Under the pieces are notes generated by a model. It was not told where the DNA came from. It did not search any database and saw only the letters and a program-made list of their open reading frames with translations. From Botryllus schlosseri (lineage: Eukaryota), in the NCBI GenBank assembly GCA_051294905.1, contig CM119372.1, forward strand, positions 13,270,001-13,334,000: DNA of 64,000 nt. Direction: 5' to 3'. Below, piece after piece: positions 17,560-56,609 of the stretch. The position numbers and the translations under genes are program-made. Position 1 is the first letter of the stretch; each line of letters opens with the position of its first letter.

Positions 17560-18472
17560 GGTTGCCGGAGAACCCGGCCCTCGGAGAACCCGGCCCTTGG
17601 AGAACCCGGCCCTCGGTGAATTCCTCGGGAAATTTTGAAATTAAGTGTATTCACAAGTATTAATATGAATTAATAAAGTAATAATGTTATTATCAACTGA
17701 TTTGTCGGTCTTGTAAGGAGGTCAGGGCATGCGTAGGTCACGCAGTCACGGCGTGATCAGATCACGTGATCACGGATTGCGCAAGCGCCAAGCGCGGGAA
17801 AGAACGCGACTTTCACATATCGACCACGCGTGATTTTGTCGTTTTTATTTATATTAGATGTGATTTTGTCGTTTTTATTCCATTATATTGGATGTGACAT
17901 TTACCTGATTCAATTGATTGTGTGAAGTTGGTCAGAGCAGGCTGTTAAGGGCAATGCAACTGTAGGTTGAGGTGGGGTAGGGAGACATTAGGGTTCGGGG
18001 AGTGGAATATTGGGTTCAGGTAGGATACTAGGGTTGGGGGAGGGGGGGATATTAGGGTTAGGGTTAGGATATTAGGGTTGCCGGGGGTGGGATATTAAGG
18101 TTGCCGGGGGTGGGATATTAGGGGTAGGGTTAGGGTTGCCGGAGGTGGGATGTTAGGGTTGTCGGGGTGGGATATTAGGGTTAGGGTTGTCGGGGTGGGA
18201 TATTAGGGTTGCCGGAGGTGGGATATTAGGGGTAGGGTTAGGATATTAGGGTTGCCGGAGGTGGGATATTAGGATTGCCGGTGAATACAAAATTTCGCGA
18301 GGGCCGGGTACACCGAGGTCCAGAGTAGTCGAAAAACACCGTGAATACCACAAGTAGACCACGCGTGCTTGATATACAAAATTTCCCGAGGGCCGGGTTC
18401 TCCAAGGGCCGGGTTCTCCGAGGGCCGAGTTGGTAGGGACGGGTTCTCCAAGTGCCGGGTTCTCTGGTAATC
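17560..18472. mobile_element. MITE with internal telomere-like (TTAGGG-derived) G-rich array
   Basis: Ends GGTTGCCGGAGAACCCGGCC / GGGTTCTCTGGTAATC, TSD TGTAAGAC (17552-17559, 18473-18480), internal GGATATTAGGGTTGCCGGAGGTG-type repeats at about 17970-18280. Confidence 0.85.
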
Positions 18473-18939
18473 TGTAAGACAGGGTAAGTAAGGAAAAAGA
18501 CATTTTGTCAGAGACTCCTGCAATAGATATTGTAACCATGATTTGCATTTGCATTGATTAAGACAATCCAGCATCAGTGAGCTCGATTGTGATTGACAAG
18601 CCATCTCTCGACCGTACTCGCAACCGATCAACTCCTGCCTCAAGGTAGATTTTGGTGCGTATCTGGTGTCTTCAGTTTTATAACATTGCACCAAACACAA
18701 ATAATCCTGGAACATTTTCATCTGGAGAATTGTTCATTCTACAAATTGGGCCTCTAAATGAGCTTCAATGCACACCACTGGAATATAGTATGAATAGACA
18801 TGCACTGTTGGTACACATTGTCCGTGGCACCGCACAATTACGATCCATAGCATGCTATTAGGCATTACGATATTAATAATGGAACTGAATTTTCACAATT
18901 GCTGAATATGTTGTATCATTCACTTTTAATTTTCAATCT

Positions 18940-19400
18940 TGAATTAGAGTAAGCAATTAGTCCATATTTGGTTAGTTGATACACAATGCTGCATAGTATG
19001 ACACCAGACAAAATTTTATACTTGTTGATTCTTCCAATCAGCTGTTCAATATGAATACGTTGTCCCACCATCTTTCTTGTTGTGGAACAGTCTGGCTCAG
19101 GCATACAAATCATGTGCAGGAATATTTAAATCTAGATTCAATTTCTTGATTTCAGACTCAATGGTGAATCCCTTTTCTGCCATGATAGCATTTCCTGGTT
19201 CACCATAGCTGAACTCCGTCATTTTCTCACATTTCATGTCGAACCCACATATTTCACTAATATTTCGATCTGAAATGGTCCCCGTGAGTGAATAGTTCCT
19301 GCACAAAAGTAAGTGCATCACAATCCATCAATCCTTTCAAAGTTGTATGTGATTTATTGACAGTCAGTAATCATTATAGTTTTGAGAAATCATGAATGAA
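18940..19400 (-). pseudogene. Frameshifted DDE_Tnp_4 (ISL2EU/Harbinger-like) transposase remnant
   Basis: Fragments NKSHTTLKGLM, TGTISDRNISEICGF, PGNAIMAEKGFTI..LNIPA and RIHIEQLIGRINKYKILSGVI resemble the family motifs YKSHNT.KGL / GxISD / PGD.xMADRGF / RIHVERxIGRIK. Confidence 0.8.
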
Positions 19401-20181
19401 TGCAAATGGTGCATTTTTAAGAACCACATATCTACATGGCCAAATCGAAATTTAATGCAGCAGTTACACACGGTTGACCCAATGGTTTAATACTATGCTT
19501 ACAGCAATACTATAAATTTGACGTCAGTAGGATAAGTCGGGCAATTCAGAAAGAATTTATTGTAGTCTAGCATAAATTTCAGCTTCTCCGCATCTTTTGA
19601 CATTATGATGCTCCTCTGAGAACTAAACTTCACAATAATTGTCCGTCAATTTGTAATTTTCCTGGACGAGTTTCCTGTTTTGTGCTTCTACTTGTTCCAG
19701 AAATTTGATTTTCTTGCGTTTTATCGACCGACTTCCTCTTTCTGCAGCTTCCTTAAAGATATCCATCAAGCCTGCACAAAATATATAATATGTTTATTTT
19801 ACAGAGCAACACTGCTGTGCAGGCACCTATCAAGGCGTACTCGTCCGACTCATGCAACGTATCACCGCTACCAATTTCAACTATTCATCTCATTATTGAA
19901 TATATTGCTCTGAACAATTTCAACCCACAACACCATGCAGCAAAACTGTGGAATAAAACGTGACACACACCAAGTCGATTGTGGCATCATGTGTGACTGC
20001 ATTTCAGATTAGACTCATTCTGAAACACAGAATTATTTCATCTTAATTATGTCACGATTCAATATTTTTGGTACAATAATAGATATGTCATTTTATTAAT
20101 AAAATGAGAATTCAGATGACTACATGGAAGTTCACATGCCTTTATCCAGATTTTACATTCTTCCATGCATGGTATTGGCTC

Positions 20182-21118
20182 GATTACCAGTGAACCCGTC
20201 CCTCGGTGAACCCGGCCCTCGATGAACTCGGCCCTCGGTGAATTTTGTATTCACCGGCAACCCTAATATCCCACTTCCGGCAACCCTAATATCCTACCCC
20301 AACCCTAATGTCCCCCCACCGGCAACCCTAATATCCTACCCCAAACTTAATATCTCCCCTCCCCCAACCCTAATATCCCCCTCCCCCAACCTAATATCCC
20401 ACCTCCGGCAACCCTAATATCCTAACCCTAACCCACCTCTGGCAACCCTAATATCCCACCTCCGGCAACCCTAATATCCTACCCCAACCCTAATGTCCCC
20501 CCACCGGCAACCCTAATATCCCACCTCCGGCAACCCTAATATCCCACCTCCACCAACCCTAATATCCCCCCTCCCCAACCCTAGTATCCTACCCGAACCC
20601 AATGTCCCACTCCCCGAACCTTAATGCCCCCCCCCTACCCTACCCAACCCTAACACCCCACCTCAACCTACAGTTGCAATAACGAGCAGACCACGCGTGG
20701 TTGATATGTGAGCAATAACAATCGTTGGGATATATTTTTCATCTGAACAAGTCACACACAATATACAATGCGATAAGACCCAATGCGATGTCATTAACAG
20801 ATACGAGGATGTCGAACGTCGCACGTTCGCCCCTCGCCAAGTCAATTCAACAATGAGCCGACCACGCAATCGTGATCACGTGATCTGATCACTCCGTGAC
20901 TGCGTGATCTACGCATGCCCTGACCTCCTTACAAGATCGACAAATCAGTTGATAATAACATTATTAGTTTAATAATTCATATTAATACTTGTTAATACAC
21001 TTAATTTCAAAATTTCCCGAGGGCGGAATTCACCGAGGGCCGAGTTCATCGAGGGCCGGGTTCACCGAGGGACGGGTTCACGGGACGGGTTCACCGAGGG
21101 ACGGGTTCACTGGCAACC
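20182..21118. mobile_element. Second copy of the telomere-like-array MITE, inverted
   Basis: Ends GATTACCAGTGAACCCG / CACTGGCAACC, TSD ATTGGCTC/ATTGGCCC, C-rich CAACCCTAATATCC arrays at about 20255-20670. Confidence 0.85.
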
Positions 21119-21754
21119 ATTGGCCCTGGGAAAGGTGCAAGCGCACACCAGGAATGGACTGAGTAGCCATCTCCAAGTTACACAGGCTATTAGCACAGTG
21201 TTTATCCGACATTTGTCCTGATTGATTCAATACATGAGCTAGAACAATAAATGATGATTTCAGCTGGGAACAGATCATATTAATATGATCATTGAATATG
21301 CAGACAAGTCTCCAGTGTAACAGTAATTTGCTAGATAATGAGGCAGACTGTAGACTGTACTACATACGATTCCATAAATAGAACGCAGATAACGCAAAGC
21401 CCACATAATGAATACCCCACATATCCTGACTCAAGATTAATCTAATACATGCTATTCGGTACGACAGTCCTATAGTATACGACTAAGGACAGTACAGCAA
21501 TAGTTGCTTCATCCGAAAAGTTGTAAGAAATCCATTTATTTGGACATACCATGCTGACGAGTGCTTTTGCCACCATTCATGTTTATTGTAGGTTAGAACA
21601 CTGCAAATACATACTAGCTCTACGTTATTACCATTCACCAAAGCCAGCTATTCCCAATTCAATGTAATTTTGCTAAAAACCTTCATTTTTCAACCCTTTT
21701 CCATAAGCGCTCATAGTAAGGTTGCCCGGCCTTGTTCTTTGTTTACATCCTGCT

Positions 21755-35051: not shown

Positions 35052-35713
35052 TAGGGCTCTTCAAAAATGACTTTTTTTCTCAAATCGTACTTGCTACTTA
35101 ATAAAATTGTTAGGTTACCTAATTTAAGCCTACACACAAAATTTGGTTCAATTCCAGCCAGTAACCGCTTTGCTACAGGAGAAGTAAGTTTCTATTTATT
35201 ATATAAAAATAAATATTAAAAAATTTGAAAATTTTTTGTTCACCCCATGAAAGTGTTAGGCTGTCTATAGAAACGATGCTCACCAAATTTGGTTCAATTC
35301 CAACCAGTGGAAGCGGAGTTATTGCCGTCGAAAAATTTGGATTTGAATAAAATAGTATTTACGGTGAGCACAACTATAATAAATAAACAAAGAACCGGTC
35401 ACCGTAAATACTATTTTATTCAAATCCAAATTTTTCGACGGCAATAACTCCGCTTCCACTGGTTGGAATTGAACAAAATTTGGTGAGCATCGTTTCTATA
35501 GACAGCCTAACACTTTCATGGGGTGAACAAAAAATTTTCAAATGTTTTATTATTTAATTTTATATAATAAATAGAAACTTACTTCTCCTGTAGCAAAGCG
35601 ATTACTGGCAGGAATTGAACCAAATTTTGTGTGTAGGCTTAAATTACGTAACCTAACAATTTTAAGAAGTAGCCAGTACGATTTGAGAAAAAAGTCATTT
35701 TTGAAGAGCCCTA
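35052..35713. mobile_element. About 660-bp palindromic (foldback) MITE
   Basis: Arms of about 316 bp (TAGGGCTCTTCAAAAATGAC... / ...GTCATTTTTGAAGAGCCCTA) around a loop of about 30 bp; flanked by CTGTCCAG(T) direct repeats (35044-35052, 35716-35724). Confidence 0.88.
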
Positions 35714-36137
35714 TACTGTCCAGTCGATTCTCGCTAATTGGAGGCACTGATAATACGAATTACTGAATTGCAGATGAGCTAATAGGCCTGAATATTAGAG
35801 ATACGATCGGCATTTCATACAGACGTAATAAACGAGGTTAATACAAGTGAGTCCATTCCCTACCAGAAACCACCAAATTCTCCACCGGTTAGAAACCCCT
35901 GCATTAGAATACATCTTAGAATATAAATTTACATCACTACAATCATTTTGGTACAGCGGATCAAATGTCCATTTTCCCCGCCAATCTGTGGGTCACACAT
36001 TAGATTCGGAAGCCAACATCAGAGTGCTCATTCTTCTATCAGAGATAACCAAATTTCATGAATTTTAATGCGTGTTGGAGGCCGGCATATCATATAGCGT
36101 CAGTAGTATAGTCGATCGCTCGCACATTGGCGTTGGT

Positions 36138-36640
36138 TCTTATGGGCGGGGTGGCGAGCTAACGAGAAACCGGGGGTGGCGAACTAACGTTTTCGTCTTA
36201 TGGCGGGGGTGGCGAACTAACGTTTCGTCTTATGGCGGGGGTGGCGAACTAACGTTTTCGTCTTATGGGCGGGGTGGCGAGCTAACGAGAAACCGGGGGT
36301 GGCGAACTAACGTTTTCGTCTTATGGCGGGGGTGGCGAACTAACGTTTTCGTCTTATGGCGGGAGTGGTGAGCGGCTCTTATTTCTTATGGTGGGGGTGG
36401 TGAGCGGCTATTGCGTCTCATGGCGGGGTTGGTGAGCGGCTATTGCGTCTTATGGGTGCGGTCGTGATTCGCCTTTTCGGGTATAGGCTGCGGCGGTGAG
36501 GTGCCTGAAAACCCGGGGTGGTGACTCGCCTTTTTTGCTATAGGCGGGGGCGGTGATTCGCCTGTCGTGTATTCTTACGGGTTCTGTGGTGATTTACCAT
36601 GTGTTCTTACGGGCGTGGTGGTGATTCGCACTTTCAGGTA
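36138..36640. repeat. GC-rich subterminal tandem repeats of the palindromic element (left)
   Basis: Units of about 33 bp, TTATGGCGGGGGTGGCGAACTAACGTTTTCGTC, and variants; mirrored at about 48715-49160. Confidence 0.9.
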
Positions 36641-39600
36641 TCTCTCGCGTGGTGTTGAATATGCACGAGTCACCAACAATAACCGCACAAACGGAAACGT
36701 GGCTTGTAAGAGGATTTATGCAGTGCGTGCGACCTATATTTCGAATGACCTGCGTGCGGAATTGTTTCCCGGCCAAATGCGTGCTACTATCGATTATTAC
36801 ACTAATCCATTCAGTGCGAAATAGTTTGCTAAATCTAGGAGTCACTTCCAAGGTAATATTTTGGTAATTAGTTTACCACAGAGCCGGCGTAGACGGCGAT
36901 TCGAATATCAGCAATAACCGCGTTCACAAACTAACACTTCAAAAATGTGTGAAATAGTTTGCAAAACCCCGCGATCGCTGACAAGATAATGTCTCGGACA
37001 TAACCATCTTTCGCGACTTGGTGTTACAGGCACATCGATCGCTCACGCGGTGAAATATTCGTAAGCATCACTCGCAGAATTATATTTTGGTAATTATTTT
37101 GTCACAGAGCCGTCGCAGGGGGTGGTTCGAAAACCGACAATTTGTCACTCGCCCGCGATCGCTATATGTTTCACGCCTCCAGAATAGTGGCTGACTTTAG
37201 TTGCGTGATAAGATCCATGAAAATATTCAATCAATGTGTTAGTTTATCAACTTGAAATGAAACTCACTACACAAATCAAGTCGATTCGTATCTGAATGTT
37301 TTAAATCGGTACAACTCTAATCCTTTGACAAATCCCTTAACGCGTTTTTGTTGAATCGAACGTAACCCGAATATTACTGACGCGGACTTTCAGCCGCATC
37401 GAATTATTCGCGCATTCCGCGCCACTGTTTTCACACTTATAGAATCAATACCAACTATAACTCTACAAGAATCAAGAATCACAAGTATGTGCATTACACA
37501 GTTATTGTCTTTATTAACTTGAAATCAAACACTTAACAAAAACACGCAACTAATCATTTGGCAACTCTAGCATTACCAAAAAATTCCAGTATTGTTGATT
37601 GAAAATCCTTGAGTCATTATTATCAAAAATGTTATAGTACCGCATCGGAATCCATTCGCGGGATGTACTAAAGGTAAATCCAGATAATCCAAAATGAAAT
37701 ATTTGGACTTTGACAAACATGACTACCAACTTTGATCCAGTCACATTTCAAGATCATACTTTGAAACAATCCTTGAAACTTACAACTCTATTCACGACCG
37801 AGTTTTCCGTTTATCAAATAGAGTTTCAGTAAATACTATCGCGATATTTTAATGTGTTACTACACACAATAGAATCAATCAATGAAATAGCACCTGTTGT
37901 AAATATTTCTAACTTGACAACCACTTGTGCATACCGCGATCGACTTGTGACGCGATGAGTTAAATCGGAATATTTCAATCTATTTGTCGAAACCTTGAAC
38001 AAACTAGCAGGTTATTTTTTGTTGCAATCGAGAGAACGGAAATAGTATTATGTCTCAACATTTTAACATCTTCCCATACACAAAAGAGTAAAATACAAAA
38101 AAGCCTTGTCAAGTCAATCCGTTTGTAACTTACCCAACCAAAGCAAAAAGTATCCTTATGAAAAGTAGACAAGACTACGCGAGTAATCACCATAATCCAA
38201 AATCCATAGCAAGTTCGGTTGTACTCATAGTCCACCAAATCGTATTTTTGTTCAACTTCAAAAGTCGTTACTATTCTGTAAGATAAAGTAATTACTACTC
38301 GGTATATTTCATAAACCAAAGTAAATACTACTCGGTGTATGGTTTGAGATTAACATATTACATTTGAGTATACCGGATTTGAATATCCGACCAATGTAGT
38401 TGAGAATTCATTTCTTACAATCGAACGCAGGCGTTATATTGAAAATTTTCACGATGTAAACATATGAATTGACACATTGATTTTGACATATGAGATTTTG
38501 TAATAGTCGATCATGACTTGATTATTAAATTATGACATTATTAGACCAGGCTGTGTTGAAGGCTATTACGATACCAACAAACTTTTCAGAAACATTGTTA
38601 TTAACACATCGATTTGTGAAACTAGATTAACATATCTGAAATGTTTTGATGAGGAGGTTTAACCCATGTTCGTAAAAACCACGCAGCGTATTGTGGATAT
38701 CAGGAAATATTTTACAAATGTAATTGCCTCCAGTAACCAAGACTAAAGATGAAACAACAATTTCCTTTGTTGAACAATAACCGGCACAATACTTTATCAT
38801 CGTAATCTGTGGTGAGAATTGAAACACTTTCGCACATTACCCGGTGTCAAGATATCACTCTAGGTGAATTGACATACCACCGCTTGATTAATACCTACTC
38901 CGTTCGCACCATTTCACATACTTTGATCATTACAAAAGTAAATTGGAATATGTTTGCTAGATGCATTCAATTCAGTTAGAAATGTCTGGTGCACAACAAT
39001 CGTAATATCGAAAAAGTACTTGCTACACTATAATTCACTAAACGTGTTTTGTATTGTTGTTCATTTGTAGTATTGATTGAAATTGTTTTTGAACCCTCAA
39101 ATAATAATTCCCGACATGAAACTAAGCCGCCGAAAGTCGTTACCATCACAAAGAAACAATTTGCACGATGTTTACTAAATGTGTCCTATAGTTAGGTGTA
39201 CTGGAATTATTTGTAAAACACACACACACACACGATCAGAGAAATTGGAAATTTTTCCGTTGTCATTCGCTAAAGTAAATGTCATCACAATACTCTGTCA
39301 CTAAAAGACGTTACTTGGACGTGCTTGAATTCTAGACATAATTCTGATTTACCCAACACAAGACCCAAGGACAACCCTAGTTTCAGCCGAACACAGATAT
39401 CCAAAATATCACACACTTCGCTATTCCTAAAGCACAAACACCCGATACAAAATAATACTTGTTGTGTTGTTGCGGCATCATCACTCAACAATATCACCCT
39501 CAATACAAATGATGTTTATGTGTAACATGCTATTGATTTGAACCACACCCACCTGACGGAAGAGGATTTACTCAATCTTTACAAAATGGATATTAACCAA

Positions 39601-41039
39601 CATCACATCACCGGATTGTATCTGTTTCGCTGGATACGAGTTATGTTAGTTTAACAGTAAACAAATTTCACCCTCTTGGATTATGAACTCAATGCGTTAG
39701 CAGTCATTCAATATTTTGTTTGTGTCAACTAGTTACTTGGTATGTTACTCCACAACTCTTACAAAAGTACGAAGGATATTAACATCGCACTAAGTAATTA
39801 ACTTTACTCGATATTCTCGCATTACGAAACTAAAGAATGGTTGGTTAGACTCTACAAACTGTTTCGATATCACAAGACCTTTATTGTCTGAATGGGTGTT
39901 CATGTGTCTTAAGAACCAAATAGTTCAACACAGCACTAGTACCAACAGAAACATCAGAGTTGTTTACACAAAAGTTTGTATGCGTGCAGTATGCGAATAC
40001 CATGTGTAAGTCCAGCACAATTGTGGTATCCATCCGGGTTTAGTTAACACAATTTACGACACCGAGGTCACCTCATCTTTCGTAAGACAACAAACCAACC
40101 AAGGTTTCAGGATATGTCCATGTCATAGCAATAAATCAGCTACTCCAACAACAGAGTACATATGTTTTCTAGTTACGGTGCTTACATCTTACACACAAAT
40201 CAATCTACTTTGCTAACAAAAAGTGCTGGGTCATCAAGTGATTGCCCTAGCAACAAAACAGCTAAACGTACTATCATACAAAATGACCGTTATAGTCACC
40301 AACGGTACATGGTACAAGTAACAAGTCTCGAGAATCCAGTTATTGAAAAAACATGAAAGTGTTTCTCCTGCGCCAAGTCGTTATGTTGACGAAAGCGTAT
40401 ATTGTAATATCATGATCGATTTGCATTCGTTGGTCACAAAATGTCACAACTCTAAATAATTATTTTTCACTCAAACACAAACGCATACTTGTCGCCAATC
40501 GTTTTCATCAAGCACGAGTTCAAGAAACCTGCTACGACATGAATTCCGATTTAGTTTTACAAATATTTTATAATTGTTTTTAGTAACACTATATCAATGT
40601 CATCAAGTTGAGTGTTTACGATATTGGTGTGTAGGTGTGTGTCATACTTGGGGGATCCGTATTACAATTGACTCGAATTGACTAAATGTAAGAAGGGTTG
40701 AAATGTTTCGAATCGATTCATAAGTGGTCTTCGTTGTGGTTTTCGTCGGACATACAGCACGAACTAACTGTAGACTCCTCTCTGTTGTACAGCTACTCGG
40801 TAATCGAAATGCATTAACATGTAAACAACGATCTTGTTTCGTCACACCAAAAATATGTTCACTGTCGCGATACTCTGCACAAGACGTGCATAGCCTTTTC
40901 ACACTCGTAATAGTATACCAACGTCAAGCGATAACGTTTAACAAGACCAACGACACTGAACCCACGACGTTTACCTATGTAAAATTACCACTTTCACTTG
41001 CCAGTCCATCGTTTACCTGACTAAACATATTATTTTCCT

Positions 41040-41530
41040 TTGGAGATCTGACGTTTACCCAGAGTAAGAAACCATTTTCACTTGTAAATATATTTTTTCC
41101 CCGGCTAACAAACCTTTTTTCACTTGGAAATATATTTTTTTCCTGAGCAACAAACCTTTTTCACTTGGAAATATATTTTTTCTCTGGTTAACAAACCTTT
41201 TTCACTTGGAAATATATTTTTTCTCTGGGCAACAAACCTTTTTCACTTGGAAATATATTTTTTCCCCGGGTAACAAACCTTTTTCCCTGAGCAACAAACC
41301 ATTTTCACTTGGTGGTCCGTCGTTTACCCGAGTAAAAATATCATTCTCCTTTGGAGATCCGGCGTTTACCCAGTGTAACAATACATTTTCACTTGGAAAA
41401 ATACTTTTACCTAGAGTAACTAATCATTTTCTCCTGGGTAACAAACCCTTTTCGTCTGGAAACTATCATTTAACTGAGTACCAATACCGTTTTCACTTGG
41501 AAACACATTTTTTACCTGGGTAACAATACC
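41040..41530. repeat. About 38-bp minisatellite inside the palindrome arm
   Basis: Repeats of TTTTCACTTGGAAATATATTTTTT..GGTAACAAACC; mirrored at about 43825-44315. Confidence 0.88.
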
Positions 41531-44500
41531 ATTTTTGTTTTGAAAACTGACAACCACACCGGCCAATTTGATATTTTTGTATATTGTTACATCGGTCAGT
41601 GACAAAATATACACCAACAACGACTCCGATACATTTGTGTAATCGCATACTCATTTGCTCTGGCGCAGTCCCATCAAAATCGACGGTTAGCCACACACAC
41701 ACACAAACACAATAACAACGCGCTATTTCGATATGACTGCGATGTCCGGGTTCATGCTTTAGATTTTCCAGAACCAATCCGTCTAAAGTTGTAATCCCCC
41801 ACCTTTGTTAACTGGTTGATACACGGATAACAATCTTCGGAAAATGTAGGAACGCATACTACCCATCGTGCTAACGATTCCAGGTTACTTGTGATTAATT
41901 TCCTTGCTCACCCTATACAGATTATACGTACAGCGATATGTAGTGGTAATCGGTTTGGTCAATACATATCGCCCCATTCAGTATGGAATTACAAACCCAA
42001 TACAGGTCAGTTCATAACCGGATCCGGATATTCAATGCAAAGCGATAAAGCAGAACCAATGACCAAATGTAATTAAACATGTAGATTCACAACCCTTGAT
42101 TTTTTTTTCGTGAAAAATGACAATACATATCGAATATATATTATACGATGGTTCAACCCTGCCAAGTATTCACGTAAATGTGGTTTATGACATTACATAC
42201 AATGTATCAGTGTATCAATGTTGGGTGTTTATGCACACATCGGTATGACCCATAGACAACATCATCATACCCTCCAGGACTTCGTTATTGCATCGTGAGG
42301 TCAATAAAATCAATCGGTGGCATAGACGACAGAAGGCTTGGAGATCCAATGTAAAATTCAGACAAACAAACGGATATATTTGTCCATCTTGGTTATTCAC
42401 TCAACTACCATTGGTGCTCTCGATACAGCGAACGGTATAGTATGCAACGCATATCATTACAGTGATATATCCACAGATAAATATGGGGCCTGGCCACAAT
42501 AATTGTATCGAGATTTAACCCAGATTACTCTCCGTTCACTGATTCACTCGATGGTTTTAGCAACTTGTAACAACACAAGATAGATACGACTGGAATTACT
42601 AATATTCATAATGTTTATGATAAGTGTCGTTACCGATCGTTCACTAAGTCGATATGAATATTCGAAAAATCGGATATCACTACTCTCAACACAAGTGATT
42701 CGGTTTAAGTTTAAAATCGATTTGATAATGTAATCCAAGGTGTGTTTCTGTGGGATCTGCTAACCTTTACGAGAGAGTACTGTCTCTTTGACACATGAAA
42801 CAATTATTATCAACCACACCTTGCGTGCATCGATTTGTCGGCGTCGTACAATTATTGTGGCCAGGCCCCATATTTATCTGTGGATATATCACTGTAATGA
42901 TATGCGTTGCATACTATACCGTTCGCTGTATCGAGAGCACCAATGGTAGTTGAGTGAATAACCAAGATGGACAAATATATCCGTTTGTTTGTCTGAATTT
43001 TACATTGGATCTCCAAGCCTTCTGTCGTCTATGCCACCGATTGATTTTATTGACCTCACGATGCAATAACGAAGTCCTGGAGGGTATGATGATGTTGTCT
43101 ATGGGTCATACCGATGTGTGCATAAACACCCAACATTGATACACTGATACATTGTATGTAATGTCACAAACCACATTTACGTGAATACTTGGCAGGGTTG
43201 AACCATCGTAAAATATATATTCGATATGTATTGTCATTTTTCACGAAAAAAAAATCAAGGGTTGTGAATCTACATGTTTAATTACATTTGGTCATTGGTT
43301 CTGCTTTATCGCTTTGCATTGAATATCCGGATCCGGTTATGAACTGACCTGTATTGGGTTTGTAATTCCATACTGAATGGGGCGATATGTATTGACCAAA
43401 CCGATTACCACTACATATCGCTGTACGTATAATCTGTATAGGGTGAGCAAGGAAATTAATCACAAGTAACCTGGAATCGTTAGCACGATGGGTAGTATGC
43501 GTTCCTACATTTTCCGAAGATTGTTATCCGTGTATCAACCAGTTAACAAAGGTGGGGGATTACAACTTTAGACGGATTGGTTCTGGAAAATCTAAAGCAT
43601 GAACCCGGACATCGCAGTCATATCGAAATAGCGCGTTGTTATTGTGTTTGTGTGTGTGTGTGGCTAACCGTCGATTTTGATGGGACTGCGCCAGAGCAAA
43701 TGAGTATGCGATTACACAAATGTATCGGAGTCGTTGTTGGTGTATATTTTGTCACTGACCGATGTAACAATATACAAAAATATCAAATTGGCCGGTGTGG
43801 TTGTCAGTTTTCAAAACGAAAATGGTATTGTTACCCAGGTAAAAAATGTGTTTCCAAGTGAAAACGGTATTGGTACTCAGTTAAATGATAGTTTCCAGAC
43901 GAAAAGGGTTTGTTACCCAGGAGAAAATGATTAGTTACTCTAGGTAAAAGTATTTTTCCAAGTGAAAATGTATTGTTACACTGGGTAAACGCCGGATCTC
44001 CAAAGGAGAATGATATTTTTACTCGGGTAAACGACGGACCACCAAGTGAAAATGGTTTGTTGCTCAGGGAAAAAGGTTTGTTACCCGGGGAAAAAATATA
44101 TTTCCAAGTGAAAAAGGTTTGTTGCCCAGAGAAAAAATATATTTCCAAGTGAAAAAGGTTTGTTAACCAGAGAAAAAATATATTTCCAAGTGAAAAAGGT
44201 TTGTTGCTCAGGAAAAAAATATATTTCCAAGTGAAAAAAGGTTTGTTAGCCGGGGAAAAAATATATTTACAAGTGAAAATGGTTTCTTACTCTGGGTAAA
44301 CGTCAGATCTCCAAAGGAAAATAATATGTTTAGTCAGGTAAACGATGGACTGGCAAGTGAAAGTGGTAATTTTACATAGGTAAACGTCGTGGGTTCAGTG
44401 TCGTTGGTCTTGTTAAACGTTATCGCTTGACGTTGGTATACTATTACGAGTGTGAAAAGGCTATGCACGTCTTGTGCAGAGTATCGCGACAGTGAACATA

Positions 44501-47500
44501 TTTTTGGTGTGACGAAACAAGATCGTTGTTTACATGTTAATGCATTTCGATTACCGAGTAGCTGTACAACAGAGAGGAGTCTACAGTTAGTTCGTGCTGT
44601 ATGTCCGACGAAAACCACAACGAAGACCACTTATGAATCGATTCGAAACATTTCAACCCTTCTTACATTTAGTCAATTCGAGTCAATTGTAATACGGATC
44701 CCCCAAGTATGACACACACCTACACACCAATATCGTAAACACTCAACTTGATGACATTGATATAGTGTTACTAAAAACAATTATAAAATATTTGTAAAAC
44801 TAAATCGGAATTCATGTCGTAGCAGGTTTCTTGAACTCGTGCTTGATGAAAACGATTGGCGACAAGTATGCGTTTGTGTTTGAGTGAAAAATAATTATTT
44901 AGAGTTGTGACATTTTGTGACCAACGAATGCAAATCGATCATGATATTACAATATACGCTTTCGTCAACATAACGACTTGGCGCAGGAGAAACACTTTCA
45001 TGTTTTTTCAATAACTGGATTCTCGAGACTTGTTACTTGTACCATGTACCGTTGGTGACTATAACGGTCATTTTGTATGATAGTACGTTTAGCTGTTTTG
45101 TTGCTAGGGCAATCACTTGATGACCCAGCACTTTTTGTTAGCAAAGTAGATTGATTTGTGTGTAAGATGTAAGCACCGTAACTAGAAAACATATGTACTC
45201 TGTTGTTGGAGTAGCTGATTTATTGCTATGACATGGACATATCCTGAAACCTTGGTTGGTTTGTTGTCTTACGAAAGATGAGGTGACCTCGGTGTCGTAA
45301 ATTGTGTTAACTAAACCCGGATGGATACCACAATTGTGCTGGACTTACACATGGTATTCGCATACTGCACGCATACAAACTTTTGTGTAAACAACTCTGA
45401 TGTTTCTGTTGGTACTAGTGCTGTGTTGAACTATTTGGTTCTTAAGACACATGAACACCCATTCAGACAATAAAGGTCTTGTGATATCGAAACAGTTTGT
45501 AGAGTCTAACCAACCATTCTTTAGTTTCGTAATGCGAGAATATCGAGTAAAGTTAATTACTTAGTGCGATGTTAATATCCTTCGTACTTTTGTAAGAGTT
45601 GTGGAGTAACATACCAAGTAACTAGTTGACACAAACAAAATATTGAATGACTGCTAACGCATTGAGTTCATAATCCAAGAGGGTGAAATTTGTTTACTGT
45701 TAAACTAACATAACTCGTATCCAGCGAAACAGATACAATCCGGTGATGTGATGTTGGTTAATATCCATTTTGTAAAGATTGAGTAAATCCTCTTCCGTCA
45801 GGTGGGTGTGGTTCAAATCAATAGCATGTTACACATAAACATCATTTGTATTGAGGGTGATATTGTTGAGTGATGATGCCGCAACAACACAACAAGTATT
45901 ATTTTGTATCGGGTGTTTGTGCTTTAGGAATAGCGAAGTGTGTGATATTTTGGATATCTGTGTTCGGCTGAAACTAGGGTTGTCCTTGGGTCTTGTGTTG
46001 GGTAAATCAGAATTATGTCTAGAATTCAAGCACGTCCAAGTAACGTCTTTTAGTGACAGAGTATTGTGATGACATTTACTTTAGCGAATGACAACGGAAA
46101 AATTTCCAATTTCTCTGATCGTGTGTGTGTGTGTGTTTTACAAATAATTCCAGTACACCTAACTATAGGACACATTTAGTAAACATCGTGCAAATTGTTT
46201 CTTTGTGATGGTAACGACTTTCGGCGGCTTAGTTTCATGTCGGGAATTATTATTTGAGGGTTCAAAAACAATTTCAATCAATACTACAAATGAACAACAA
46301 TACAAAACACGTTTAGTGAATTATAGTGTAGCAAGTACTTTTTCGATATTACGATTGTTGTGCACCAGACATTTCTAACTGAATTGAATGCATCTAGCAA
46401 ACATATTCCAATTTACTTTTGTAATGATCAAAGTATGTGAAATGGTGCGAACGGAGTAGGTATTAATCAAGCGGTGGTATGTCAATTCACCTAGAGTGAT
46501 ATCTTGACACCGGGTAATGTGCGAAAGTGTTTCAATTCTCACCACAGATTACGATGATAAAGTATTGTGCCGGTTATTGTTCAACAAAGGAAATTGTTGT
46601 TTCATCTTTAGTCTTGGTTACTGGAGGCAATTACATTTGTAAAATATTTCCTGATATCCACAATACGCTGCGTGGTTTTTACGAACATGGGTTAAACCTC
46701 CTCATCAAAACATTTCAGATATGTTAATCTAGTTTCACAAATCGATGTGTTAATAACAATGTTTCTGAAAAGTTTGTTGGTATCGTAATAGCCTTCAACA
46801 CAGCCTGGTCTAATAATGTCATAATTTAATAATCAAGTCATGATCGACTATTACAAAATCTCATATGTCAAAATCAATGTGTCAATTCATATGTTTACAT
46901 CGTGAAAATTTTCAATATAACGCCTGCGTTCGATTGTAAGAAATGAATTCTCAACTACATGGGTCGGATATTCAAATCCGGTATACTCAAATGTAATATG
47001 TTAATCTCAAACCATACACCGAGTAGTATTTACTTTGGTTTATGAAATATACCGAGTAGTAATTACTTTATCTTACAGAATAGTAACGACTTTTGAAGTT
47101 GAACAAAAATACGATTTGGTGGACTATGAGTACAACCGAACTTGCTATGGATTTTGGATTATGGTGATTACTCGCGTAGTCTTGTCTACTTTTCATAAGG
47201 ATACTTTTTGCTTTGGTTGGGTAAGTTACAAACGGATTGACTTGACAAGGCTTTTTTGTATTTTACTCTTTTGTGTATGGGAAGATGTTAAAATGTTGAG
47301 ACATAATACTATTTCCGTTCTCTCGATTGCAACAAAAAATAACCTGCTAGTTTGTTCAAGGTTTCGACAAATAGATTGAAATATTCCGATTTAACTCATC
47401 GCGTCACAAGTCGATCGCGGTATGCACAAGTGGTTGTCAAGTTAGAAATATTTACAACAGGTGCTATTTCATTGATTGATTCTATTGTGTGTAGTAACAC

Positions 47501-50500
47501 ATTAAAATATCGCGATAGTATTTACTGAAACTCTATTTGATAAACGGAAAACTCGGTCGTGAATAGAGTTGTAAGTTTCAAGGATTGTTTCAAAGTATGA
47601 TCTTGAAATGTGACTGGATCAAAGTTGGTAGTCATGTTTGTCAAAGTCCAAATATTTCATTTTGGATTATCTGGATTTACCTTTAGTACATCCCGCGAAT
47701 GGATTCCGATGCGGTACTATAACATTTTTGATAATAATGACTCAAGGATTTTCAATCAACAATACTGGAATTTTTTGGTGATGCTAGAGTTGCCAAATGA
47801 TTAGTTGCGTGTTTTTGTTAAGTGTTTGATTTCAAGTTAATAAAGACAATAACTGTGTAATGCACATACTTGTGATTCTTGATTCTTGTAGAGTTATAGT
47901 TGGTATTGATTCTATAAGTGTGAAAACAGTGGCGCGGAATGCGCGAATAATTCGATGCGGCTGAAAGTCCGCGTCAGTAATATTCGGGTTACGTTCGATT
48001 CAACAAAAACGCGTTAAGGGATTTGTCAAAGGATTAGAGTTGTACCGATTTAAAACATTCAGATACGAATCGACTTGATTTGTGTAGTGAGTTTCATTTC
48101 AAGTTGATAAACTAACACATTGATTGAATATTTTCATGGATCTTATCACGCAACTAAAGTCAGCCACTATTCTGGAGGCGTGAAACATATAGCGATCGCG
48201 GGCGAGTGACAAATTGTCGGTTTTCGAACCACCCCCTGCGACGGCTCTGTGACAAAATAATTACCAAAATATAATTCTGCGAGTGATGCTTACGAATATT
48301 TCACCGCGTGAGCGATCGATGTGCCTGTAACACCAAGTCGCGAAAGATGGTTATGTCCGAGACATTATCTTGTCAGCGATCGCGGGGTTTTGCAAACTAT
48401 TTCACACATTTTTGAAGTGTTAGTTTGTGAACGCGGTTATTGCTGATATTCGAATCGCCGTCTACGCCGGCTCTGTGGTAAACTAATTACCAAAATATTA
48501 CCTTGGAAGTGACTCCTAGATTTAGCAAACTATTTCGCACTGAATGGATTAGTGTAATAATCGATAGTAGCACGCATTTGGCCGGGAAACAATTCCGCAC
48601 GCAGGTCATTCGAAATATAGGTCGCACGCACTGCATAAATCCTCTTACAAGCCACGTTTCCGTTTGTGCGGTTATTGTTGGTGACTCGTGCATATTCAAC
48701 ACCACGCGAGAGATACCTGAAAGTGCGAATCACCGCCACGCCCGTAAGAACACATGGTAAATCACCACAGAACCCGTAAGAATACACGACAGGCGAATCA
48801 CCGCCCCCGCCTATAGCAAAAAAGGCGAGTCACCACCCCGGGTTTTCAGGCACCTCACCGCCGCAGCCTATACCCGAAAAGGCGAATCACGACCGCACCC
48901 ATAAGACGCAATAGCCGCTCACCAACCCCGCCATGAGACGCAATAGCCGCTCACCACCCCCACCATAAGAAATAAGAGCCGCTCACCACTCCCGCCATAA
49001 GACGAAAACGTTAGTTCGCCACCCCCGCCATAAGACGAAAACGTTAGTTCGCCACCCCCGGTTTCTCGTTAGCTCGCCACCCCGCCCATAAGACGAAAAC
49101 GTTAGTTCGCCACCCCCGCCATAAGACGAAACGTTAGTTCGCCACCCCCGCCATAAGAACCAACGCCAATGTGCGAGCGATCGACTATACTACTAGCGTC
49201 GCTCCAAGACAAGCTACATATTATTGAATTACAATGATCGTTATGTCGAATAGATATTGCGTGATGATCATCCTACTAAAGAGCAGAAAATTATTTCCAG
49301 GTTCAACAAATTGATAAAAATATTCATATAACTTCTACCTACATTCTCAGAGTCTACGATTTTAAAACTCCCTTGGTAGTTTACGGAGTTGAAGTTACGA
49401 TTACGATAAGCGAAATGCAAGTAGTTGTAACAACGCGACTGCGATAGAATAGTATTCGTTTTTAGGATATTTAGATTGGAATAATCATTATTATTTTCCT
49501 TCATATACGCGCATTGCGCAACTTTGTTGTCTTTAAATAGATGTCGGCCTGGCTGGGTGAGTCATGAATCACAATTTGAGATATGAACAATTGAACGTAG
49601 ACAGTGAGTGATTTTCTAAGGTATGCAATCAATTTGACAAATCGAAAGAAGGACCATTGTCATGATTCTGGCAAAACTGGCAAAGTATGGAAAAGTATGG
49701 AAGTATGGAAAACACGTTCCATACCATACTTGGGAAATTTCCATACCATACCATACTTGCACTCTTCCATATTCCACACTGAAATTCCGTTCCATACCAT
49801 ACTTCCATACCGTACCATACCATGCCCTGGTCGCAGTCGCGATTCACTTGGTCTTGAGAGAGCCCTTATGGTCTGTCGATATACCGGTTCCATTACCTGG
49901 TTGAAGTGAAATATTCCACACTTTCTTTTATCTCTTACATGTATAATTGTATACTCTCAGGTAGTACATTTCGCCACCGTGAAGAAATTGGAGGGAGCCT
50001 TAAATGATGGTTCTTAACGAGAATTTGCACGTTTCTCTTACAGGCCATTATATTTATCTTTACTATCTTCATATTATACAAAGTATTATCTGGGATATAT
50101 AGTTGATATATAACAATTGTTTCGTCATTAAATGTATTTTTGGACTGTTTTCATGTTCTCTGTACAAGTTGTAACGCATTGAAAGTAGCTGAAGGCGGCC
50201 CCTCTCTCTCTCTCTCTCTCTTTTGTGGCCAAGCGAACGATCTGAGCTAGATTATACCATTTAATTCACGGGTGTGAAACTCACATGCATTTTGACATTC
50301 TTGGTGTTGCATTAGGACGATATCTTCGTCATTCACTGTCGATAATCGAACCAGGCAAATTCACATTGTTTGTGATTACATCAGGTTCCGGTTCGTTTGT
50401 ACACGAACTTCAACAAGAGGTTCGACGTGAATACTAACATCTGACGTTACAATGCTATTTCAAACACTCTTCCGTAAGGGGTGGTTATATCCAAATGTAT

Positions 50501-52845: not shown

Positions 52846-53610
52846 GGTTGCCAGTAAATTCGGCCACCGGTAAATTCGGCCAGTAAATTCGGCCGTAGGT
52901 CACTTCGGCTCTCGGTAAATTCGGCCCTCCGATAATATTGCATTAAGATGCATTACCAACTGCTAACATGAATTAATTACATACCATGATCAAGTGATTT
53001 GGAGGTCAGGGTATGCGTAGATCGCGTAATCACGGGAGTTAGCGCGGATACGGGGCCGAATTTACCGTTGGCCGAATTTACCTGATATGTTCGGCCCTGG
53101 GAGAATTTTGTATAAAACCGTTAATAAAACTATTAATGTGAATAAATTACATAATAATATCATTATCACGTGATTTGGAGGACAGGGTGTGCGTATATCA
53201 CGCAGACACCGCAGATAACGCGGATGTTTGCGGGGCCGAATTTAGCGAGGGCCGAATTTAATCGGTAAATTCGGCCCTCGGAGAATTTTGTGTAAAAATG
53301 TATTACCAACCGTTAGCATGAATTAATTATATAATTATATTATTATCAAGTGATTTGGAGGTTAGGGGTTAGGGTTAGGTAATGTAGGGGTTAGAGTTAC
53401 GGTTAGGATTCGGATTAGGGTTTGGATTAGGATTAAGGTTAGGATTAGGGTTAAGGTTAGGTAATGTTATTGTAACTGTTATTGTTACCCCGGTCCAGGC
53501 CGAATTTACCGAGGGTCGAATTTACCGAGAGCCGAATTTACCGAGGGCCGAAGTGACCTGTGGCCGAATTTACTGGCCGAATTTAGCGGTGGCCAAATTT
53601 ACTGGAAACC
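52846..53610. mobile_element. MITE with telomere-like array, related to 17560-18472
   Basis: Ends GGTTGCCAGTAAATTCGGCC / GGCCAAATTTACTGGAAACC; internal GGTTAGGG/GGATTAGG array at about 53360-53465; flanked by TGTCTCCT direct repeats. Confidence 0.8.
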
Positions 53611-54045: not shown

Positions 54046-54929
54046 GTCTCCTGATATACTATTGCATCCGGTTTATATTGGCGGGAAAATACATAATTGC
54101 GTCACTGCACTATTATTGAGTTGAATCGTTCATTCGTTTGTTATTAATATCTGTCACCTGTCAGAAGTACAAGATGGTGATAAAATGAAAAGTTAGGAAG
54201 GAGTTGCGACGACTTACAGTTATTTTTCAATCAAGCACCCACCTTGGCCTAGAATATGTAAATAATAGGCATACACACCGATGAAAGTAACAGAAGATAT
54301 AGCATACCATACCCTAAAAAGGACAAGCAATGTATATAAATGAGCGGTATCGTCGTGTTGGTGTTGGGGGGTGAGATCGTTATGTCACGTCGTAGCCCGG
54401 TAATCTCGAGTGCTGTCTAGTATGCCCGACTACAGTAAGATTGCGGGCGAAAAGCTTTTTCCGTTACTTGATCTTGATCGAGCGATGATTTATCTTACTT
54501 TCCGTATTTGGATAAATTTCTGTGGTGTATTGAACTGATGAAAATGCTAATAAACTAAACCGAACCAAATACAAACGGTAGCACTCAGCACAGAAGCCTA
54601 TACGCATATCGTAGAATTCACTATCATTCTATCAAGTATCAATACTTACTTCTTTGCACTTACAAGCCATTTTGCGTCACAACAATTGCTCTAACATGAA
54701 TGCAAGAGTATTTGGTGTCGTCGTGTCGTGGTTCGGACCAGATTTGTCTTTGAATTTTCAGAAACGATGCAAATGTTGCTTTTAATTGTGACCGGTTTAG
54801 TTTGATTAAATTTTTGTACTCTGGAGTCTGGTCGCCAGCTATATAAGATTCCCCAGTATATACCTAGTTCATGTAGAATTAAACTGATCGAAGCAATTCA
54901 GTGACGGTAATTTTCGGCCACACAGTGCA

Positions 54930-56609
54930 ATGGCCCTCGAAGAGGAACTTCGAAAAAAGTATGACTTCATCATGCGACCAATCAAAGATCTGACAAAGAA
55001 TTGGGAAATCGACGTCAGCCATATATTAGAACAATATATGGGCGAAATTGAGAAGCTTTCATTCACAGTGAATCACGATGGTGCCGTCATAAATTTTGCT
55101 GAAGCGTCGCTACTGATTCAAGGCACGGCATGTGTATGGGGTCGTAAGGTCGAATATCTCTACACTTTGATCAAAAAGTCTTTGGATATGATCGGAAGTA
55201 AACAGTCTTCACCTGGTCAAATATCTTTGGGACCGGGAAATTCAACAGTTGAAGACGGTAATTTCTGTGATGACGAGGAGAAATTAATTAAATTGGACGA
55301 CGTTTCAATAACTTCTCAAAGACTTATGAAAGGTCAGTACGATCTGGTCACCCCCTTTCCTCTCCCACCACCGTCCATGTTAGAGGTCCATTCCGATGAA
55401 AAAGGTCGGGTCGTTATCATGGAAGAGAAAAGTGACGCTGTTTGTTACTCTAATGATTTTTGGGTGAACCACTATGTACCGTTTGATGATGATGTGAGTG
55501 TGCTTGATAGAGACACCAATGGTGCTCTTCATAGAATGCATGTTGCGACACCGTCGGTTAGCTGTGAATCACCATCGTTTGACGATGTGCAACCAGACGA
55601 ATGGGATTGCGAAGATCAAGATCCTACTGAAAGTGATAAGAGTATGGATATCTCAGCTCCATTGGTAGATGACGTATTTCCAGAAGTAAACCAAGAGATT
55701 GTTAACACGGAAATTAATATGAGACAGAGATTAAGGGTGCCGAAAACACCTGTGGTACAAGATGAAGAGGTTGTAAAAAGGTTAGACCCTTACGAAGAAT
55801 GTGTAATATCATCCTGGACGAATAAGTCACACCGGAAATTGAAATGTTACAAACCGCCTCGTTCGAAGTCTCAGAAGAGAAAGCATGATGGAACGCAGGA
55901 GTCGGCCGTGGAACCAATTAGTGATTTTATGGACAAGTTCACAAAGCGAAACGTAGACGCAAATGAACAAAATCCGCTTTCTCTTATCATGCAGGTGGAG
56001 CAAAAGAGTAGGAATAATATATGGAAGCTGATTAAGAGTAAGGCTTTATTATCAGAACAGCCGATCGATAATGGCATTGAACATGACTATCCGGAATCTG
56101 ATGAAGATTGCTCGATATTTGGTGACAACGAGGAACAGATAGAGCACGATTTTCCAGGACAAGCAGAAAATATACACCCGAATGATCAAGCTGTACTATC
56201 GTACGAAGACTTGGTGCGTCAGCATGTCGAGAAATTTTACAGTGGCGCGCAGAAATTTAAAGAAGAAACGGAATTAGCTCAGCGAGTAAAGCGATGGGAG
56301 GGTGTCGTGTCCCAACACCTGGAAAAACAGAATCAAATGCCTGTATTTGATATCCACACTTATGGAGACAAAGTCTTGAAGAAGTTCACCGATGTCAACG
56401 AAACGAAAGCGTTTACGGATATTTGCCGGTCCGAGAACAGATGGGATGTTTGTAGACTGTTTTCTGCTACGCTGCAACTTGTTAATGACCAAAACTTCCT
56501 TATCAGTAAAAGTGAAGATTTTCAGAACTCTCTTAATTCTATAAAATTGACTTTATTGACAAAGCATCGGCTTCGCGATCGCTTTGACAACTATGCGGGA
56601 GAAACTTGA
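54930..56609 (+). CDS. NCAPH2: Condensin-2 complex subunit H2 (kleisin beta), single-exon CDS, 559 aa
   Basis: N-terminal PIKDLTKNWEIDV..NFAEASLLIQGTACVWGRKVEYLY and C-terminal SYEDLVR..ETELAQRV..FDIHTYGD..VCRLFSATLQLVN match the CNDH2_N and CNDH2_C regions. Confidence 0.95.
   Translation: MALEEELRKKYDFIMRPIKDLTKNWEIDVSHILEQYMGEIEKLSFTVNHDGAVINFAEASLLIQGTACVWGRKVEYLYTLIKKSLDMIGSKQSSPGQISLGPGNSTVEDGNFCDDEEKLIKLDDVSITSQRLMKGQYDLVTPFPLPPPSMLEVHSDEKGRVVIMEEKSDAVCYSNDFWVNHYVPFDDDVSVLDRDTNGALHRMHVATPSVSCESPSFDDVQPDEWDCEDQDPTESDKSMDISAPLVDDVFPEVNQEIVNTEINMRQRLRVPKTPVVQDEEVVKRLDPYEECVISSWTNKSHRKLKCYKPPRSKSQKRKHDGTQESAVEPISDFMDKFTKRNVDANEQNPLSLIMQVEQKSRNNIWKLIKSKALLSEQPIDNGIEHDYPESDEDCSIFGDNEEQIEHDFPGQAENIHPNDQAVLSYEDLVRQHVEKFYSGAQKFKEETELAQRVKRWEGVVSQHLEKQNQMPVFDIHTYGDKVLKKFTDVNETKAFTDICRSENRWDVCRLFSATLQLVNDQNFLISKSEDFQNSLNSIKLTLLTKHRLRDRFDNYAGET

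What the first reader, a model, noticed from the sequence alone, without database searches (positions are those of the whole stretch)
36102..49194. A 13-kb almost wholly palindromic Polinton/Maverick-type element: a candidate integrated snap-back (defective-interfering-like) genome
Seen: arms of 6406 bp (36102-42507) and 6348 bp (42847-49194) are reverse complements around a 339-bp spacer. The termini read AGTAGT...ACTACT, an exact 6-bp duplication AGCGTC flanks them, and the sequence beyond is unrelated on the two sides. Known: AG..CT termini with short terminal tandem repeats and 6-bp TSDs characterise Polintons/Mavericks, which normally have sub-kb TIRs and encode pPolB, integrase and capsid proteins. 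Inference: one end of a Polinton-like genome was copied back on itself by template switching during protein-primed strand-displacement replication. That would give a self-complementary molecule with two functional ends, which a helper element could integrate in trans. At 13 kb it approaches normal Polinton length, so it might be a packageable satellite or DI particle; if transcribed, it would also be a potent dsRNA source.
Basis: partly seen in the sequence, partly recalled or inferred. Interest (0 to 1): 0.92.

Follow-up and report, generated by a model that had tools for sequence, protein, structure and literature searches.

The report
Mirror-image satellite of Polinton viruses
This 13-kb insertion is a real, gene-less, mirror-image mobile element, one of at least 190 related copies in this genome that share their ends with virus-like Polinton elements, which likely copy and insert them, and its near-constant size may be a footprint of packaging into virus particles.

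Summary
Arms of 6,406 and 6,348 bp differ by 6 substitutions and one 58-bp indel. They surround a 339-bp spacer, with AGTAGT/ACTACT ends and a 6-bp duplication. The element splits an older host repeat whose paralogues show the empty site.

It is not a one-off snap-back. The same spacer occurs at 40 loci or more, and 16 of 20 copies read have paired ends and their own 6-bp duplication (12.8-15.9 kb). Within a copy the arms are 99.9% identical; between copies they are mosaics (median 72% alignable, 87% identical), while spacers stay 98.8% identical. So arm changes are likely copied onto both sides before insertion.

Coding Polintons in the genome (80 near-identical capsid-like genes) share the exact 21-nt end and 0.7 kb of arm, and recombine with the satellites. 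A sister subfamily keeps one small loop gene under purifying selection; this copy lacks it. Satellites are about 80% of helper length, like packageable inverted dimers of gutted adenovirus; packaging is untested.

This scan noted the family before in this genome and a similar one in another. I found no published description, but the founding paper and Repbase were unavailable.

The parts
36096..36101 (+). left copy of the 6-bp target-site duplication (AGCGTC)
   Evidence: single target in 5 of 5 paralogues of the host repeat
36102..42507 (+). left arm, 6,406 bp, starts AGTAGT
36102..36828 (+). outer part of the arm homologous in pieces (about 70-90%) to the terminal repeats of coding A-family Polintons; first 21 nt identical to some coding copies; predicted origin and integrase site
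36137..36455 (+). GC-rich 32-33-bp tandem units; holds the 58-bp indel between the arms; unit motif shared with A-family ends, absent from families B-D
41065..41535 (+). 21/41-bp tandem array specific to the satellites: 5-18 motif hits in 39 of 39 palindromic halves, 0-1 per strand in 23 of 24 coding loci (the exception is a chimera); function unknown
42508..42846 (.). 339-bp unique spacer (loop), full length at 40 loci at 97-100%; lacks the 91-93-aa gene of the sister subfamily; 42532-42583 matches the start of the ~920-bp spacer type
43809..44290 (-). mirror copy of the 21/41-bp array
42847..49194 (-). right arm, 6,348 bp, ends ACTACT
49195..49200 (+). right copy of the 6-bp target-site duplication
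35716..36094 (+). left half of the older host repeat that the element interrupts (right half from 49197 to about 49700)

Best explanation
This is a recently inserted, gene-less member of a large family of palindromic elements that share their ends with coding Polintons of the same genome and are likely copied and integrated by those Polintons' proteins. Shown: the layout, the shared ends, many independent insertions, arms identical within a copy but mosaic between copies, and satellite-helper chimeras. Inferred mechanism: the helper's protein-primed polymerase starts at the AGTAGT ends and displaces one strand. That strand folds into a 6.3-kb stem with a 339-nt loop and so rebuilds a duplex origin. 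Template switches with co-replicating satellites and helpers swap blocks in one arm, and the paired stem copies the change to the other arm. The helper's integrase then inserts the product with a 6-bp duplication, after which the arms drift apart. The most likely reason for the mirror shape is that doubling a ~6.5-kb unit restores a length the helper machinery, possibly its capsid, requires; this last step is the weakest.
For: Same 339-bp spacer at 40 loci (40 scored of 362 candidates). 16 of 20 fetched copies have paired ends and perfect 6-bp duplications. In 17 copies, within-copy arm identity has a median of 99.86% at full coverage; between copies (136 pairs) the median is 72% coverage and 87% identity; spacers are 98.8% identical. 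Identity to this copy falls with distance from the spacer. The 17 copies carry 16 different terminal 40-mers, yet both ends agree in 16 of 17. One-arm transposon insertions with their own duplications are not mirrored, so homogenisation likely precedes insertion. The exact 21-nt end marks both satellites and coding elements. A2-family polymerases have canonical motifs in 2 of 2 copies read, and their database relatives carry PF03175; integrase rve E 4.5e-16. A 14.0-kb chimera joins a polymerase segment to a satellite arm. Some satellites carry a helper gene in both arms that is predicted to be an RPA-like single-strand-binding protein (Foldseek E 5.7e-11). End motif, duplication and a size constraint match vertebrate Mavericks (PMC8097293).
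Against: No replication intermediate, transcript or particle was observed. Most of the arm has no detected source in the coding copies read, so the origin of the family is not traced. Which family is the helper rests on end similarity only. Sizes are not strictly bounded: a 21.1-kb four-arm copy and 8.6- and 9.1-kb short copies all have perfect duplications. Several copies have arms that differ in blocks (C5, C12c, C7, C2b), so homogenisation is incomplete. No read or contig spans this locus from flank to flank.
Confidence: 0.78

Rival explanations
1. The element is a helper-dependent Polinton derivative, but its arms are kept identical by gene conversion after integration, as in sex-chromosome palindromes, not during extrachromosomal replication.
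For: Long, closely spaced inverted repeats can convert (general knowledge). Block-wise differences between arms in some copies could be partial conversion tracts.
Against: Three one-arm transposon insertions with their own target duplications, and several one-arm deletions or duplications, persist unmirrored. Substitutions build up evenly along the arms in the more diverged copies (19 in C3a, 12 in C4a). Each copy has its own terminal 40-mer at both ends, right up to the target duplication.
Confidence: 0.1
2. A foldback-type cut-and-paste element that uses only the Polinton integrase or a related transposase; the size is inherited from a founder and has no link to protein-primed replication or packaging.
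For: No polymerase or capsid gene in the element. Long arms with tandem sub-repeats recall foldback transposons (recalled). Short and long variants integrate cleanly.
Against: Cut-and-paste gives no route for new blocks to appear in both arms at once. Chimeras and gene exchange with coding Polintons point to shared replication. Length stays near 13-14.7 kb despite block swapping and two spacer types.
Confidence: 0.08
3. A one-off snap-back of one end of a coding Polinton that was integrated once.
For: The arms are 99.9% identical and the ends are Polinton-type. Arm boundaries do move by copy-back in relatives: a coding copy's terminal repeat has taken in part of the protease gene, and one satellite has its loop gene doubled.
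Against: The spacer is shared by at least 40 loci. Essentially only ~0.7 of 6.4 kb matches coding elements, and no gene remnants were found.
Confidence: 0.02
4. Assembly fold-back artefact.
For: No long read was available, and no contig spans the locus.
Against: The arms differ at 6 sites plus a 58-bp indel. The flanks are the two halves of one host repeat with a target duplication. 16 of 20 relatives have their own duplications. Contigs of two other runs bridge the right spacer-arm junction with 31 or more letters on both sides (records 13 and 21; these may come from any same-spacer copy).
Confidence: 0.02

Closest known systems
Polintons/Mavericks (Polintoviricetes); vertebrate set of Barreat and Katzourakis 2021, PMC8097293 (passages and section 7 read)
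   Same: (AGT)2//(ACT)2 ends, 6-bp target duplication, total length inside the reported 12.7-24.6 kb range
   Different: Terminal repeats of 6.3 kb against 46-1,447 bp; none of the core genes
Non-autonomous or gene-depleted Polintons: polB-less insect polintons and ~2-kb coding TIRs (bioRxiv 10.1101/2025.02.07.637071, passages read); Polinton-1N1_DR (name seen in PMC9341505, structure not seen)
   Same: Mobile without own polymerase; terminal repeats that grow over neighbouring genes
   Different: Here 97% of the element is terminal repeat and no core gene remains; hundreds of copies with a conserved loop. I recall, unverified, that some zebrafish non-autonomous Polintons in Repbase have multi-kb repeats; the paper was not held.
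Helper-dependent (gutted) adenovirus genomes (PMC4189039, passages read)
   Same: Only ends are needed in cis. Genomes below 75% or above 105% of helper length tend to rearrange, and a 15-kb vector is packaged as direct and inverted dimers. The satellites are about 80% of a 16.5-kb helper.
   Different: Laboratory vectors, not integrated and not a natural family; packaging of the satellites is not shown
SYREC symmetric recombinant of adenovirus 12 (named, and its helper dependence stated, in PMC2396429; original paper not held; its palindromic layout is recalled)
   Same: Viral end plus non-viral filler in a symmetric, helper-dependent genome
   Different: A single cell-culture product; here an amplified family integrated by an integrase
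Foldback transposons and MITEs (recalled)
   Same: Long inverted arms with internal tandem repeats, no transposase
   Different: Polinton ends, 6-bp duplication, 13-14 kb size and recombination with Polinton genes

Membership tests
Autonomous Polinton/Maverick | (AGT)2//(ACT)2 or (AG)3//(CT)3 end motif | tested here: met
   motif described in PMC8097293
Autonomous Polinton/Maverick | 6-bp target-site duplication | tested here: met
Autonomous Polinton/Maverick | protein-primed polymerase and integrase genes | tested here: not met
   no ORF over 151 aa; no tblastn hit in the window element
Autonomous Polinton/Maverick | capsid, packaging ATPase and protease genes | tested here: not met
Non-autonomous Polinton derivative | ends shared with a coding Polinton family in the same genome | tested here: met
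   identical 21-nt end on coding copies; ~0.7 kb of homology
Non-autonomous Polinton derivative | many independent insertions, each with its own 6-bp duplication | tested here: met
   16 of 20 same-spacer copies; 11 of 15 copies found by the terminal region
Non-autonomous Polinton derivative | mobilised in trans by the helper's proteins | not testable with these tools
   inferred from shared ends, chimeras and gene exchange
Copy-back/snap-back defective-interfering genome | self-complementary genome with the same end at both sides | tested here: met
Copy-back/snap-back defective-interfering genome | arm is a direct copy of one end of the helper genome | tested here: inconclusive
   essentially only the outer 0.7 kb matches the coding copies read; the full right end of family D was not located
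Copy-back/snap-back defective-interfering genome | packaged in helper capsids and interferes with the helper | not testable with these tools
   size fits a 75-105% window by analogy only
Foldback transposon (FB/Galileo type) | long arms with tandem sub-repeats | tested here: met
Foldback transposon (FB/Galileo type) | ends and duplication length of a Mutator- or P-type transposase (7-9 bp, recalled) | tested here: not met
   6-bp duplication and Polinton ends

The most novel reading that the evidence does not exclude
These elements are natural, heritable satellite genomes of an animal Polinton virus. Each is an inverted dimer of a ~6.5-kb unit, held at about 80% of helper length because only such lengths are packaged, so the family is a genomic footprint of a virion stage and of panhandle strand-displacement replication in animal Polintons. 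The satellite-specific 21/41-bp array would be a competitive cis signal.
Probability: 0.4. Interest if true: 0.87.

Novelty: new variant of a known kind. Interest (0 to 1): 0.7.

Why it matters
Whether animal Polintons form particles and how they replicate are open questions; PMC8097293 states that particles have not been observed. A gene-less parasite should shrink, as MITEs do, yet these stay near 13-14.7 kb while swapping blocks. That gives a direct test for a packaging constraint. Arms that are identical within a copy but mosaic between copies give a sequence record of end-to-end copying. The genome holds helpers, satellites, chimeras and a subfamily with a degenerate polymerase, so it is a natural system for these tests. 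Hundreds of 13-kb palindromes also bear on genome stability, assembly and possible hairpin RNA.

Tried and rejected
A genome search with Pfam PF03175 found nothing, and its controls did not ring either; polymerases were then found by protein search. Pfam, PHROGs and the PDB sequence search did not name the polymerase, capsid or protease ORFs. The capsid, penton and protease labels rest on size, gene order and recalled motifs, plus 'F54H12.2-like' relatives (that this label marks Polinton capsids is recalled).

No Rfam match in the arm or spacer. The terminal 21-mer had no match in viral contigs. The loop protein has no Pfam family, one database relative, Atlas scores under 0.9, and only weak beta-sandwich matches: small heat-shock fold, Z 5.3, rmsd 4.0, 74 aligned; no Foldseek hit at E 0.001. 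I assign it no function.

No RNA holder was listed, so transcription is untested. The left spacer junction was covered by a contig with only 30 letters on the arm side, so it was not counted. One contig starts at 49194 after 23 unlaid letters and may be an empty allele or a paralogue; it was not read, so presence or absence in other individuals stays open. The bacterial promoter scan is not informative for this host.

Four of the 20 same-spacer copies failed my paired-end filter: two have full 6.7-kb arms, one has only 3.1 kb of matching arm, one has a large one-arm insertion. Ten of 58 end matches had no partner within 20 kb.

Literature searches found no description of wholly palindromic Polintons in the listings and passages read. 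Kapitonov and Jurka 2006, Krupovic and Koonin 2015, Deuring 1981 and an adenovirus replication review were not held. Repbase could not be searched, and no supplements were read.

Full report
OBSERVATION. Self-alignment confirms the palindrome at the stated coordinates: arms 36102-42507 and 42847-49194, spacer 339 bp, 6 substitutions and one 58-bp indel in the terminal repeat units, AGTAGT/ACTACT ends and a duplicated AGCGTC. No ORF inside exceeds 151 aa. The right flank is a dispersed host repeat. In 5 of 5 paralogues read, it continues directly into sequence matching the left flank, with one copy of the target. The element is therefore a true insertion. Contigs from two other public runs bridge the right spacer-arm junction, but none spans the locus.

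FAMILY. The window lies in a 496-Mb eukaryotic genome; that it is an animal is inferred. The near-terminal 441 bp hit many paired sites (40 scored of 2,722 candidates). All 10 pairs first fetched were 13-16-kb inverted-arm elements. Of 15 such loci tested, 11 gave matching ends with perfect 6-bp duplications. Most share a ~920-bp spacer. The window's own 339-bp spacer is present at full length at 40 loci at 97-100% (40 scored of 362 candidates). I fetched 20 of the 39 others: 16 have paired ends and their own perfect duplication and measure 12.8-15.9 kb, median 13.6 kb with the window copy. The ~920-bp subfamily has at least 150 loop-gene matches (150 scored of 1,193 candidates). The family thus has about 190 copies at the least, probably several hundred.

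ARMS ARE RE-MADE SYMMETRICALLY. Among 17 same-spacer copies, the two arms of a copy are 99.86% identical (median). Arms of different copies align over only 72% at 87% identity (medians of 136 pairs), whereas 21 spacers are 98.8% identical. Identity to the window copy is 92-99% next to the spacer and patchy, from unalignable to 100%, further out, with nearly the same value in both arms of each copy. The 17 copies show 16 different terminal 40-mers built of shuffled short blocks, and both ends agree in 16 of 17. Simple inheritance from a palindromic founder predicts the opposite, so changes must be copied from arm to arm. Three transposon insertions with their own target duplications sit in one arm only, which places the copying before integration (inference). 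Exceptions exist: copies whose arms differ in blocks, and a 21.1-kb four-arm copy with 99.97-100% identical parts.

HELPERS. An exact search for the first 21 nt gave 58 matches, control 0. They form 24 pairs of 8.6-19.0 kb, 16 of them 12.7-14.7 kb; 10 ends were unpaired. Of 12 pairs read, 8 are palindromes, 2 are coding Polintons, 1 is a chimera and 1 is a short remnant. Coding elements measure 15.4-16.7 kb (8 copies with ends located) and have terminal repeats of about 0.3-1.1 kb. They carry a polymerase whose database relatives bear PF03175, an rve integrase with chromodomain and an ATPase, and ORFs that I read as capsid, penton and protease from order, size and recalled motifs. Eighty full-length capsid-like genes match at 96-100% (100 matches listed). 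Family A shares pieces of the outer ~0.7 kb of the arm at about 70-90% and two short inner stretches; families B-D share little more than the end motif. Polymerase motifs are canonical in 2 of 2 A2 copies and degenerate in 7 of 7 A1 copies read, so A2 is the likely helper. Exchange is visible: a 14.0-kb element joins an A2 polymerase segment to a satellite arm under one target duplication. Six of 36 satellite halves fall in the ORF cluster of a 211-aa helper gene, and one copy has it intact in both arms. Its model (pLDDT 82.8) matches tandem OB folds of RPA70 (E 5.7e-11), so it is a predicted single-strand-binding protein.

LOOP GENE. The ~920-bp spacer encodes a 91-93-aa ORF. Against a diverged type, dN is about 0.27 and dS about 0.9; within the main type pN/pS is about 0.5. 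A 32%-identical relative lies downstream of the protease in family C. It is predicted to be an all-beta protein with no convincing fold match. The window's subfamily lacks it, so it is dispensable in cis. All satellites read share a 21/41-bp array that coding loci lack.

MECHANISM. Shown: layout, shared ends, repeated insertion, symmetric mosaics, chimeras. Inferred: helper polymerase primes at the repeated end motif (the jumping-back role is proposed in PMC8097293) and displaces a strand that folds into a long stem. Blocks gained by template switching are copied across the stem, and the integrase inserts the product. Repair of adenovirus ends through such a stem is recalled, not read. On size: gutted adenovirus genomes under 75% of helper length rearrange, and a 15-kb vector is packaged as direct and inverted dimers (PMC4189039 passages). 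The satellites are 79% (this copy) to 82% (median) of a 16.5-kb helper, which fits an inverted-dimer reading. The 8.6-, 9.1- and 21.1-kb copies argue against a strict limit, and no particle has been seen.

COMPARISON AND NOVELTY. It works like a helper-dependent, defective-interfering-type genome and belongs with non-autonomous Polinton derivatives; it fails the test for an autonomous Polinton. Published repeats reach 1.4 kb in vertebrates (PMC8097293, passages and section 7) and ~2 kb in butterflies (bioRxiv 10.1101/2025.02.07.637071, passages). PMC6431247, PMC3014272, PMC11296320, PMC9341505, PMC2396429 and PMC9863843 were read as passages only. Seven searches showed no description of wholly palindromic Polintons, but the founding paper and Repbase were out of reach, and I recall, unverified, long-armed zebrafish entries. 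This scan already holds 72 Polinton notes for this genome, the eight shown all on this kind of element, and one on a similar family in another genome. These are unchecked AI notes and not independent support; I found the family and the loop gene before opening them.

VERDICT. Real; new variant of a known kind; interest 0.70. The packaging reading has probability 0.4 and would deserve 0.87.

Noticed in passing
L043:4942-8526, L051-L056, L071, L073: Subfamily A1 keeps a long polymerase ORF and near-identical capsid-like genes, but the catalytic motifs are degenerate in 7 of 7 distinct copies read. About 37 such hits appear, which suggests a second helper-dependent class.
   Followed up: partly
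L043:1881-2516 (-); L131:1320-1952 and L132:5363-5995: A 211-aa Polinton accessory gene found in families A-C is predicted to be an RPA70-like tandem OB-fold protein; some satellites carry it in both arms.
   Followed up: yes
L135/L136 (G000:C15:3043945-3057957): A 14.0-kb chimera of an A2 polymerase segment and a satellite arm with one 6-bp duplication.
   Followed up: partly
L031-L033 (G000:C16:1579220-1600356): A 21.1-kb copy with two spacers and four arm segments at 99.97-100% identity under one duplication, suggesting a template switch during replication.
   Followed up: partly
L075/L043/L042 (G000:C1:40.81-40.84 Mb): A coding A1 Polinton is inserted into the right arm of a satellite that has the window-type spacer.
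   Followed up: partly
34 target duplications: Insertion targets favour an ACGT-like core (A 41 of 68 at position 2, C 43 of 68 at position 3, both strands counted).
   Followed up: no
window 42494-43253: Contigs 98-99% identical to the spacer and inner arm occur in runs filed under two other organism labels, where the right flank has next to no cover. Close relatives, mislabelling or horizontal spread are all possible.
   Followed up: no
window 35052-35713: A separate 662-bp, 94% palindromic MITE-like element with very high contig depth, 390 bp left of the finding.
   Followed up: no
window 54888-56609 (+): An intronless 573-aa ORF for condensin II subunit CAP-H2 (PF06278, PF16858).
   Followed up: no
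window 16885-21754 and 52846-53610: Older inverted-repeat elements with TTAGGG-like and 16-bp minisatellite arrays.
   Followed up: no
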